Shown piece by piece: positions 25,952 to 27,865 of a stretch of DNA of 64,000 bases. Within the stretch, counting starts at the first letter, position 1. Each line of letters starts with the position of its first letter. Both the position numbers and the translations under genes were made by a program. The notes under the pieces were generated by a model, which made no database searches, was not told the origin of the DNA, and worked only from the letters and a program-made list of their open reading frames with translations. This DNA comes from a virus: IMG/VR virus record IMGVR_UViG_3300033181_000231; one strand, given 5' to 3'.

Positions 25952-26302
25952 TCAATGGAACAGACGCCGCCGCTCTTCATCGCTGATCGGAGTCGGAACC
26001 ATCGGGCGCACTCTCTGCGATCCTGCGTTGATGGGTTGTACATCGCGCTGGCAATAGCGACACACAGACGCGGCCTCGGGGATGCGGCTTAGGCAATGGG
26101 GACATGACCGCGTCCACGCATCAGCCTGCCGGATCGTTTCGACATCGTCCAGTGGACGCAAGAGCGCCACGACAATAAACGCGAATATGCCGAATAGGAT
26201 GCCGAGCACGAGCCACCCGCCAACGTCGCGATGCTTGTTCGACGCCACGATCGGCGCCCCCACGATCCCCAAGAACCACGCGATAGCGATGAACAGTGTC
26301 AT
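25952..26302 (-). CDS. Membrane protein with C-terminal zinc ribbon (moron)
   Basis: GAGGGGG RBS. Two TMs, then 'SCPHCLSRIPEAASVCRYCQRD'. Confidence 0.75.
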   Translation of the reverse strand: MTLFIAIAWFLGIVGAPIVASNKHRDVGGWLVLGILFGIFAFIVVALLRPLDDVETIRQADAWTRSCPHCLSRIPEAASVCRYCQRDVQPINAGSQRVRPMVPTPISDEERRRLFH

Positions 26303-26365
26303 GGCGCGCGTCCCCCTCTCTCGCGCACAAGCGTACCGAAAAAAGGGGAGCATGTCAACAAGCAC

Positions 26366-26508
26366 AGAGGGGGCGCGTTTCTGGAACGCGCCCCCTCTCC
26401 TCACCAAACGGAGCCTCTCCCCGCCGTGCCGTGCCGCGCCGGACCTGGCCTGACCATGCCTGACCACGCCAGACCCTACCCCAACGCTAGCCCACCCAAC
26501 CACCCACA
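26366..26508 (-). ncRNA. Putative guide RNA B: 19-nt leader + GGY-NN pentamer array + 3' 14-bp hairpin
   Basis: 12 consecutive perfect GGY-NN units (26480-26421) then 5 degenerate ones. Hairpin AGAGGGGGCGCGTT/AACGCGCCCCCTCT (26366-26398). Confidence 0.75.
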
Positions 26509-26511
26509 ATG

Positions 26512-27126
26512 CTAGCGCAGGGCAATACGCGTCAACCGGAACGCGCCGTGCCACCCGCCCGTCGAGGGGCGGTAGTCACCGACGCCGTGCATCTTGCCGG
26601 CCGTCTGGATGACCTTCTCAATGCTTGCCATATCGGTTAGCGACAGGTCCAAGACGTAGCGGCAGGTCATGAACCACGGCGGGTTGATCTCCGGCCGGCC
26701 GCGCTCGACGCCTGCCGTTCCCACGACGACGCGCTCCACGTTCACGCCGTAGTCGTCGATGGGCGTCCCGTTCTCATCGTGGAGAACAAACATGGTATGC
26801 ATGGCGTCGAATTGCATCGCGCCTTTGAGAATGTAGCTGTAGCGATAGCGTTGCCCCGGCGCCGGGAAGCGCGCCGCCGCGTCGATCATGCTCTTGCGCA
26901 TATGCGTTGCCGGTAGCGCAAGGTGGCCGTCCGCGTCACGGTAGACGTACTTGGGCGCCTCCTGCTCCGGCGTTGGCCGCTCCTTCTTCTTAACGATGCC
27001 CGTTTCCTGGCGCAAGTTGCCACGCCAATTGTGCATGAGAACCGACGATATGCCCTCGACCGTGAACTCCAGATCGCGCCACGCCTCGAACTCAACCTGT
27101 GGCTTCTCTACCAATGCCGTCACCAT
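26512..27126 (-). CDS. Solo Cas7/RAMP-fold protein (Vipr-like putative RNA-guided effector)
   Basis: AAGGAG RBS. 'LEFTVEGISSVLMHN', 'YRDADGHLALPATHMRKSMIDAA', 'RGRPEINPPW', C-terminal Gly-rich loop 'AGKMHGVGDYRPSTGGWHGAF'. Confidence 0.8.
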   Translation of the reverse strand: MVTALVEKPQVEFEAWRDLEFTVEGISSVLMHNWRGNLRQETGIVKKKERPTPEQEAPKYVYRDADGHLALPATHMRKSMIDAAARFPAPGQRYRYSYILKGAMQFDAMHTMFVLHDENGTPIDDYGVNVERVVVGTAGVERGRPEINPPWFMTCRYVLDLSLTDMASIEKVIQTAGKMHGVGDYRPSTGGWHGAFRLTRIALR

Positions 27127-27158
27127 CGTGCGTTACTCCTTCTTAGAAATCCCCTAGC

Positions 27159-27252
27159 AAGCCAGACCTTACCCCACCTCACCCGACCATACCTAGCCTT
27201 CTACCTGACCATGCCTCGCCTGACCGAGTCCGTGCCCGCCCAACCACCCACA
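27159..27252 (-). ncRNA. Putative guide RNA A: 19-nt leader + GGY-NN pentamer array
   Basis: 13 perfect GGY-NN units (5 + AA insertion + 8) in the intergenic region upstream of the RAMP gene. Confidence 0.7.
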
Positions 27253-27259
27253 TGCACGG

Positions 27260-27841
27260 TTACAGCACGCTATTTTTCTCCGCGATGGCGACGACCTCCT
27301 CTTCGTTAAACACTTGACCAACCGTGCTGTCCGCCGCCCCAGCGGCCATGCGGCCGGCGAGGCAATCGAAGAACCGCGCGTAGGCCGCGTTGGACCGCGT
27401 GCGATCGTAATAGGCGGTGCGTTGATAGAGAACCATGTCCCCTGTCATGTCACCCAGCGGGACCATGCCGACGCCGGGGATCATGAACCGCCAATCGCTC
27501 AGGAGGCACTGCGCCTTGCCCTGCGCGACCGACCGCACCTTCGTCTCGATGGCGATGGGGGCGTCAGGGTTCACCAGGACGGGCGCGCTGCCGGTCACAA
27601 CGGACCTGCTCTGGCGCGTCTGATGCGCGACCTTGCGCCCCAGATAGATGAAGCCTTGCAGGGTGACCGTCCCGGCGATATCGGGCAGGATGCCCCGGTC
27701 CTGGCATGCCGCCAGCGTCCGGTCGGCCGCCTCCCGGTAGCCGATCTGGCCGCTCGCAAGGAGATCGCGCAAGTGGCGCATGGCCCACGCGGTCGCCGCT
27801 GATTGGGCGTCCGCGTCGTCCGGCGGAAGGGGGTTCAACAT
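27260..27841 (-). CDS. Hypothetical protein upstream of the RAMP gene (possible accessory factor)
   Basis: AAAGGA RBS. 'VPLGDMTGDM...Y...N...ARFF..LA' C-terminal helical domain. Confidence 0.65.
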   Translation of the reverse strand: MLNPLPPDDADAQSAATAWAMRHLRDLLASGQIGYREAADRTLAACQDRGILPDIAGTVTLQGFIYLGRKVAHQTRQSRSVVTGSAPVLVNPDAPIAIETKVRSVAQGKAQCLLSDWRFMIPGVGMVPLGDMTGDMVLYQRTAYYDRTRSNAAYARFFDCLAGRMAAGAADSTVGQVFNEEEVVAIAEKNSVL

Positions 27842-27865
27842 GTGGCCTGATCCTTTCTGATTCAC

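What the first reader, a model, noticed from the sequence alone, without database searches (positions are those of the whole stretch)
26396..26480. Decoded guide B and its degenerate 3' end
Seen: the NN string is AG CT GT CA AT CA CA CC GC AC AC GG, then degenerate units GGA-GA, GGC-TC, CGT-TT, GGT-GA running into the hairpin. It differs from guide A apart from a shared GGCAT-GGTCA block, suggesting a second independent target. Inference: as NNx codons it gives (S/R)LV(H/Q)(I/M)(H/Q)(H/Q)PATTG(D/E)S, with no stop on this strand. Degeneration towards the 3' hairpin hints at polarity (5' units under selection or newly added).
Basis: partly seen in the sequence, partly recalled or inferred. Interest (0 to 1): 0.65.

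Follow-up and report, generated by a model that had tools for sequence, protein, structure and literature searches.

The report
Phage VIPR guide RNA, target unknown
The five-base repeat tract is the second guide RNA of a VIPR system, a CRISPR-related DNA-silencing device of phages first described in 2026, so it is a real new example of a known kind, and its target could not be found.

Summary
Five imperfect units follow and run into a 14-bp terminator-like hairpin.

It is a vrRNA of a VIPR system (bioRxiv 10.64898/2026.04.26.720920 and .720927). The adjacent 204-aa gene is a Vipr homologue: its family profile hits PDB 36pp, SUSP1 Vipr, at E 1.5e-19, the guanine-binding residues are conserved, and the fold is Cas7/Csm3-like. 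In IMG/VR, 82 of 120 array-bearing loci carry a Vipr-profile ORF on the array's strand.

The NNx reading matches the published 1-nt-skip rule. No target was found. Exact sub-pattern scans of IMG/VR, JGI metagenomes and GTDB genomes gave only chance-level hits, the best being 22 of 24 positions. There is no self-target.

Relatives keep the 5' leader, a 6-bp covarying stem around a G-rich loop, but carry different guides. The polarity idea is not supported. The "degenerate" units lie in predicted hairpins and line up with the 3' ends of sister vrRNAs.

This scan has already reported VIPR loci in at least 65 other genomes.

The parts
26486..26516 (-). 5' leader stem-loop of vrRNA B. It has a 6-bp stem (GCUAGC/GCUAGC), whose 5' arm contains the vipr stop codon TAG, around a 19-nt G-rich loop.
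   Evidence: The 18-nt core is identical but for one base to the one before array A. In four copies (window A and B, L136 A and B) all 24 stem cells pair and 3 of 6 pairs change on both sides.
26421..26480 (-). Guide tract of vrRNA B: 12 perfect GGY-NN units with NN = AG CT GT CA AT CA CA CC GC AC AC GG.
   Evidence: The unit count lies within the published range of 9-16.
26396..26420 (-). Imperfect units GGA-GA, GGC-TC, CGT-TT, GGT-GA and GGA-GA. They are a probable 3' tail rather than decayed guide units, although units 13-14 may still be read as guide.
   Evidence: A predicted 6-bp hairpin at 26424-26408 spans units 12-14. The units align in register with the 3' ends of window A, L136 A and L136 B.
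26366..26398 (-). Terminator-like hairpin that ends the operon: 14 bp, 10 of them G-C, a 5-nt loop, then a T-rich run GTGCTTGTTG.
   Evidence: z-score -3.6 for the 71-nt 3' region.
26512..27126 (-). vipr gene, encoding a 204-aa RAMP/Cas7-like protein.
   Evidence: The profile of 82 homologues hits PDB 36pp, SUSP1 Vipr, at E 1.5e-19 over the full length. The G-loop GVGDYRP and thumb R144 align with SUSP1 D177/W178/R179 and R138. The AF2 model has pLDDT 94 and its top Foldseek hits are Csm3/Cas7. It also matches phrog_4652.
27149..27225 (-). vrRNA A: 5 plus 8 GGY-NN units with a 2-nt insertion, and a short tail, in the leader of vipr.
27230..27259 (-). 5' leader stem-loop of vrRNA A (CCGUGC/GCACGG around the same G-rich loop).
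27260..27865 (-). Conserved accessory gene directly upstream (candidate vap), of no known family.
   Evidence: The same synteny is seen in L136 (59% identity) and in L138 (31% identity, E 7e-24). It has no Pfam or PHROG hit.

Best explanation
The tract is vrRNA B of a phage-borne VIPR system. It is transcribed on the minus strand as the last element of the operon accessory gene - vrRNA A - vipr - vrRNA B, which ends at the hairpin 26398-26366. By analogy with SUSP1, one Vipr protomer binds each GGY, which gives a helical filament of about 12-14 protomers. The filament displays the NN dinucleotides, which pair with double-stranded DNA of the form AGxCTxGTxCAxATxCAxCAxCCxGCxACxACxGG, skipping every third base. 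Bound DNA is transcriptionally silenced, and the likely target is a competing phage, prophage or satellite. Shown here: the repeat anatomy, the identity of the protein, the association of such arrays with Vipr genes, guide turnover among relatives, and the absence of a self-target. Inferred from the papers: filament formation, the skip rule and silencing. Unknown: the target, and the processed 5' and 3' ends.
For: There are 12 perfect units on the gene's strand, 31 nt after its stop codon. The neighbouring protein is a Vipr by profile-sequence match, conserved residues and fold. In IMG/VR, 82 of 120 array-bearing loci carry a Vipr-profile ORF, always on the array's strand and at a median gap of 40 nt, against 0 of 42 control loci. 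The relative L136 (Vipr 84% identical) has the same gene order and the same leaders but unrelated repeat tracts. A third relative in a 2022 rock metagenome diverges right after unit 1. The best self-match is 17 of 24, below the published 80% threshold, as the papers report for their systems. Architecture and rule are described in bioRxiv 10.64898/2026.04.26.720920 and .720927.
Against: No target was found beyond chance. The two vrRNAs of this locus do not share a 3' tail (p 0.66), whereas the SUSP1 clade has an invariant 40-60-nt pseudoknot tail. The constant part here is a 5' stem-loop.
Confidence: 0.85

Rival explanations
1. The tract is a real vrRNA by descent but no longer guides anything. 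It could be a decaying copy, or a decoy or sponge that merely titrates Vipr.
For: No target was found. Imperfect units lie at the 3' end. The arrays of the relative L136 are much more degenerate in GGY. Guides A and B share a gapped three-unit match that could be a relic of duplication (P about 0.01, post hoc).
Against: Twelve consecutive perfect GGY units are not what decay leaves behind. The collection scans were exact-match only and the host is unknown, so a missing target is weak evidence. The published work also tolerates internal degeneracy of vrRNAs.
Confidence: 0.07
2. The tract is a cis-acting attenuator. Vipr (or another oligomeric RNA binder) coats the repeat tract of the nascent transcript, as TRAP does on its triplet repeats. 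Because units 12-17 overlap the small hairpin and the 5' arm of the terminator, binding would change termination before the downstream 116-aa membrane/Zn-ribbon gene.
For: Triplets with 2-nt spacers in about 12 copies resemble a TRAP site (established knowledge of Bacillus TRAP). The last unit lies within the terminator stem. Array A lies in the vipr leader just before its ribosome-binding site.
Against: The NN positions differ completely between relatives, as in guides and not as in a fixed operator. The downstream gene has a weak promoter-like site of its own, TTGACA-17-TACGCT (read). No such role is described in the VIPR papers.
Confidence: 0.05
3. The tract is a protein-independent structure (a two-tier G-quadruplex run) or a chance low-complexity repeat.
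For: GG recurs every five bases, and the leader loop has four G-tracts.
Against: Shuffles never reach the observed count. The third base is constrained to a pyrimidine. The arrays are tightly linked, on the same strand, to a specific protein family across phages of 37-70% GC.
Confidence: 0.02

Closest known systems
Type II VIPR system of Escherichia phage SUSP1 (Vipr + vap1 + vrRNAs; PDB 36pp; bioRxiv 10.64898/2026.04.26.720920, .720927, 10.64898/2026.10.15.759431)
   Same: A small lone RAMP protein with conserved GG-binding residues. GGY-NN tracts of 9-16 units on the gene's strand. One vrRNA upstream and one or more downstream of vipr. An accessory gene alongside. No self-target.
   Different: The proteins are only distantly related (single-sequence E 0.15; the match is clear only with a profile). 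No shared 3' pseudoknot tail was found; instead both vrRNAs carry a conserved 5' stem-loop with a G-rich loop. The accessory gene has no recognisable family. The host is unknown and the source is a rock metagenome.
VIPR system of the Pseudomonas fulva prophage (same preprints)
   Same: It is carried by a temperate phage, and its guides are thought to be aimed at resident prophages' regulators.
   Different: No target class could be assigned here.
Cas7/Csm3 backbone filaments of class 1 CRISPR effectors
   Same: The fold is the same (Foldseek E 1e-6, TM about 0.5), with one protomer per RNA repeat segment and thumb-induced base flipping.
   Different: The guide period is 5 nt with 3 bases hidden, not 6 nt with 1 flipped. 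There are no cas genes, no CRISPR array and no spacer acquisition genes in the window.
TRAP and its (G/U)AG triplet repeats in Bacillus trp leaders
   Same: An oligomeric protein reads about 11 triplets separated by 2-nt spacers.
   Different: TRAP is an unrelated protein. Its spacers carry no information and it acts on its own mRNA. Here the spacers are the hypervariable, informative part.

Membership tests
VIPR system (Vipr + vrRNA) | A Vipr protein: a minimal RAMP with an RRM core, G-loop and thumb | tested here: met
   The profile hits SUSP1 Vipr (PDB 36pp) at E 1.5e-19 over the full length. H32, R144, D184, Y185 and R186 align with SUSP1 H17, R138, D177, W178 and R179. The AF2 model has pLDDT 94 and its top hits are Csm3/Cas7.
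VIPR system (Vipr + vrRNA) | Tandem GGY-NN (YNNGG) units, 9-16 per vrRNA, next to vipr and on its strand | tested here: met
   There are 12 perfect units (14 if one GGA is allowed) starting 31 nt after the vipr stop. Array A has 13 units before the vipr start.
VIPR system (Vipr + vrRNA) | GGY conserved and NN hypervariable among close relatives | tested here: met
   In L136 (Vipr 84% identical) and in the X3 relative the leader is kept and the NN strings are unrelated. GGY itself is looser in L136.
VIPR system (Vipr + vrRNA) | An invariant structured 3' tail (a pseudoknot in the SUSP1 clade) | tested here: inconclusive
   The 3' flanks of A and B are not alike (p 0.66). The window A tail resembles the L136 B tail (p 0.0045). 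The four 3' ends align in register with a weak shared motif. B ends in two predicted hairpins. No pseudoknot could be shown.
VIPR system (Vipr + vrRNA) | An accessory vap gene in the locus | tested here: inconclusive
   A 201-aa gene directly upstream is conserved in three loci. It has no family hit, and its model is too poor to search (pLDDT 61).
VIPR system (Vipr + vrRNA) | A natural target matching at least 80% of NN under the 1-nt-skip rule | tested here: inconclusive
   The best hits reach 22 of 24 (L144 and L167). The number of hits and how far they extend both fit chance. Only exact sub-patterns of 9-10 units could be scanned.
VIPR system (Vipr + vrRNA) | No self-targeting | tested here: met
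   The best match on the phage's own 64.6-kb contig is 17 of 24 (71%).
VIPR system (Vipr + vrRNA) | The vrRNA is expressed and bound by Vipr | not testable with these tools
   This needs small-RNA sequencing and pull-down.
CRISPR-Cas | A repeat-spacer array and adaptation or effector cas genes | tested here: not met
   No CRISPR-like repeats were found around the locus, Rfam gave no hit, and the neighbouring ORFs matched no Pfam family, Cas or other.

The most novel reading that the evidence does not exclude
In this clade the constant handle of the vrRNA is a 5' stem-loop, a covarying 6-bp stem that presents a G-quadruplex-capable loop and begins at or just after the stop codon of the preceding gene. 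It would replace the 3' pseudoknot tail. vrRNAs would then be cut out of the operon mRNA at this element, and the Vipr filament would be capped or nucleated from the 5' side, the opposite polarity to SUSP1.
Probability: 0.2. Interest if true: 0.5.

Novelty: new member of a known kind. Interest (0 to 1): 0.3.

Why it matters
It adds a divergent VIPR locus from a temperate phage of a rock community, with a high-GC genome, to a family so far studied experimentally only in enterobacterial and Pseudomonas phages. It shows that guides are replaced between close relatives while a 5' leader is kept. It also flags an architecture (5' stem-loop, no recognisable pseudoknot tail) that could inform how vrRNAs are processed and how filaments are capped. 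Because the class is already published and this scan has met it in dozens of genomes, the value is incremental.

Tried and rejected
1. My first idea was a TRAP-like attenuator or a G-quadruplex run. I dropped it once the arrays proved to be linked to Vipr genes and the VIPR papers were read.

2. A header search in IMG/VR gave 15 chance hits with no arrays behind them.

3. The search for related loci with the Vipr protein or small alignments found no relative in IMG/VR or GTDB genomes. megablast against INPHARED phages also found none.

4. Target scans for guide B were all at the frequency expected by chance.
- IMG/VR: units 1-10 gave none, units 4-12 gave 2 hits, units 6-14 gave none and units 1-9 gave 1 hit.
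- JGI metagenomes: units 3-12 gave 2 hits.
- GTDB genomes: units 4-12 gave 23 hits in unrelated taxa and frames.
- L144 (22/24) lies just upstream of, or in the N-terminus of, a SPOR-domain gene next to accA-tilS on a bacterial chromosome. About one such hit is expected by chance, and extension to 4 of the 6 extra positions is expected about twice among the 27 hits.

5. Neither guide matches the relatives' VIPR loci, and L136's guides do not match this phage.

6. The host could not be inferred: the genome search draws no relatives for a virus record, and the protein atlas search gave viral taxa only.

7. No RNA holder is listed among public runs, so nothing can be said about expression.

8. 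One contig of about 2 kb carries 18-nt exact matches to both 26425-26442 and 27072-27089, in three of the four runs laid. I judged these to be seed-length chance matches in GC-rich DNA.

9. The model of the accessory protein was too weak (pLDDT 61) for a fold search.

10. Rfam gave only a sub-threshold STnc250 match (26.8 bits against a gathering score of 42).

Full report
**What is there**

The window is almost the whole of a 64.6-kb phage-like contig with about 66% GC. Public runs labelled rock metagenome hold it.

Read on the minus strand, the flagged stretch is a strict 5-nt repeat.
- Five further units follow: GGA-GA, GGC-TC, CGT-TT, GGT-GA and GGA-GA.
- The last of these lies inside the 5' arm of a 14-bp hairpin (26398-26366, 10 G-C pairs) that is followed by a T-rich run and is terminator-like.

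A five-unit GGYNN pattern occurs 19 times in the window against 1.3 expected. All but one of these matches fall in this array or in a second one at 27156-27230.

The two arrays flank a 204-aa minus-strand gene (26512-27126). Each begins a few bases after the stop codon of the preceding gene with the same 18-nt G-rich core.

**What it is**

In those examined, GC ran from 37 to 70%, there were often several arrays per contig, and all arrays of a contig lay on one strand.

I then found and read the three 2026 preprints. They describe the system as follows.
- Phages encode a minimal RAMP protein, Vipr, and vrRNAs of 9-16 GGY-NN repeats.
- One protomer binds each GGY.
- The NN dinucleotides pair with double-stranded DNA while every third target base is skipped.
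- Binding silences transcription.

I tested membership directly.
- The 204-aa protein has 879 representative relatives at E up to 0.001.
- A profile of 82 of them hits PDB 36pp, "SUSP1 Vipr protein", at E 1.5e-19 over its whole length.
- The single sequence aligns its GVGDYRP loop and thumb arginine with SUSP1 D177/W178/R179 and R138, the residues that hold the two guanines and the pyrimidine.
- The AlphaFold model is confident (pLDDT 94), and its best solved neighbours are Csm3/Cas7 subunits.
- A Vipr-profile ORF lies in 82 of the 120 array-bearing IMG/VR loci, always on the array's strand and at a median gap of 40 nt. None lies in 42 control loci.

The flagged tract is therefore vrRNA B of a VIPR locus. 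The order on the minus strand is accessory gene (27260-27865), vrRNA A, vipr, vrRNA B, terminator.

Reading the NN pairs as NNx codons is the published 1-nt-skip rule, in which the skipped base usually falls on the wobble position. The resulting string, (S/R)LV(H/Q)(I/M)(H/Q)(H/Q)PATTG, is a legitimate way to write the target.

The GGCAT-GGTCA block shared with guide A is not beyond chance (P about 0.2). With a one-unit gap there is a three-unit match (P about 0.01). That test was chosen after seeing the data, so it is at most a hint of common origin.

**Targets**

The phage does not target itself: the best match is 17 of 24, as the papers report for their own systems.

Collections can only be scanned for exact patterns, so I used overlapping sub-patterns of 9-10 units.
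- IMG/VR gave 0, 2, 0 and 1 hits.
- JGI metagenomes gave 2 hits.
- GTDB genomes gave 23 hits.

These numbers are what base composition predicts. The hits are scattered over unrelated taxa, frames and strands, and their extension into the remaining units fits chance.

The two best hits reach 22 of 24.
- L144 is a bacterial chromosomal region, accA-tilS-SPOR gene. The site lies just upstream of, or in the N-terminus of, the SPOR-domain gene.
- L167 is an Arthrobacter MAG.

Neither is significant. The guides also do not match the relatives' VIPR loci. The target is unknown. A target with scattered mismatches, or one from the unsampled host community, would have been missed.

**Turnover among relatives**
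- L137 is an identical copy of the window and tells nothing.
- L136 is a 1.5-kb contig with a Vipr 84% identical. It has the same gene order and the same two leaders, but repeat tracts with unrelated NN strings and a looser GGY.
- A 2022 rock-metagenome run holds a third relative (88-92% identical). Its contig follows the window through the leader and unit 1 and then diverges.
- More distant loci (L138, L139) also have arrays next to vipr.

Guides are therefore replaced while the leader is kept. The data are too few to show gain or loss of units at one end.

**The 3' end and the polarity idea**

Four observations speak against reading the imperfect units as decay of unselected 3' units.
- They are structured. 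Units 12-14 form a predicted 6-bp hairpin (26424-26408), and the last unit is part of the terminator stem. The 71-nt 3' region folds better than all 200 shuffles (z = -3.6).
- Aligned with the 3' ends of window A, L136 A and L136 B, they stay in register. The "NN" of the third-last unit is TT in three of the four and TA in the fourth, which is not what a variable guide position looks like. The window A and L136 B tails share CTGGCTTGCT-AGGG (p 0.0045). For B itself the similarity is weak, so this point is only suggestive.
- In SUSP1, cryo-EM shows that the units next to the 3' cap are engaged first and the R-loop grows from 3' to 5'.
- In 302 arrays from other phages the 5' and 3' flanks lose the GGY register alike.

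The guide may be read as 12, 14 or 16 units, and only an experiment can tell which.

**What differs from the published type**

The two vrRNAs of this locus share no 3' tail (p 0.66), but they share a 5' element (p < 0.0005). This element is a 6-bp stem around a 19-nt (B) or 18-nt (A) loop that carries the G-rich core.

The stem is CCGUGC/GCACGG in A and GCUAGC/GCUAGC in B. In L136 it is CCGUGC/GCAUGG and CCUAGC/GCUAGG. All 24 cells pair, and three pairs change on both sides. Versions of the structure slid by one to three columns pair in only 17-33% of cells.

This rests on four sequences, so it is modest evidence. Earlier notes of this scan mention leaders before vrRNAs in other phages. I did not check those notes, and I do not claim the leader as new.

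The accessory gene is conserved in three loci. It has no family hit, and its model is too poor to classify.

**Verdict**

This is a new, divergent member of VIPR with an unidentified target. This scan has already reported VIPR loci in at least 65 other genomes. Interest is moderate to low.

Noticed in passing
window 27230-27259 and 26486-26516, minus strand: Both vrRNAs start with a 6-bp stem around the same G-rich loop (core GUGGGUGGUUGGGYGG). The stem sequence differs between A and B and covaries in the relative L136. In B the 5' arm contains the vipr stop codon. The loop has four G-tracts and could form a G-quadruplex.
   Followed up: partly
window 25952-26302, minus strand: Downstream of the terminator lies a 116-aa gene with two N-terminal hydrophobic helices and a C-terminal CxxC...CxxC Zn-ribbon. 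It is preceded by a weak promoter-like TTGACA-17-TACGCT (26358-26330) and a GAGAGGGGGA ribosome-binding site. My first frame for it (26121-26303) was off by one.
   Followed up: partly
window 27260-27865, minus strand; L136:37-633; L138:123-686: A gene of about 190-200 aa with no known family always sits directly upstream of vipr in this clade. It is a candidate new vap family. The AlphaFold model is mostly helical but of low confidence.
   Followed up: partly
L138:1520-1775: In a relative with a Vipr 47% identical, five short arrays of 6-10 units follow the gene. Several of them are separated by spacers of about 13 nt that begin with GG, a different array architecture from the window's.
   Followed up: no
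L016-L135 (IMG/VR loci): 38 of the 120 array-bearing loci show no Vipr-profile ORF in the DNA fetched. They may be solo vrRNA arrays, divergent Vipr types, or loci cut off before the gene. Arrays of up to 50 perfect units occur.
   Followed up: no
window 26425-26442 and 27072-27089: One contig of about 2 kb, present in three of the four rock-metagenome runs laid, carries exact 18-nt matches to both places, in the same order and orientation but 404 nt apart instead of 647. They are probably seed-length chance matches in GC-rich DNA.
   Followed up: no
L144:2984-3012: This is the best skip-rule match of guide B (units 2-12 exact). It lies between a promoter-like AT-rich stretch and the GGGGGA ribosome-binding site of a SPOR-domain gene next to accA and tilS on a 67% GC bacterial contig. 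It is statistically a chance-level hit, but it is the only candidate worth a second look.
   Followed up: partly
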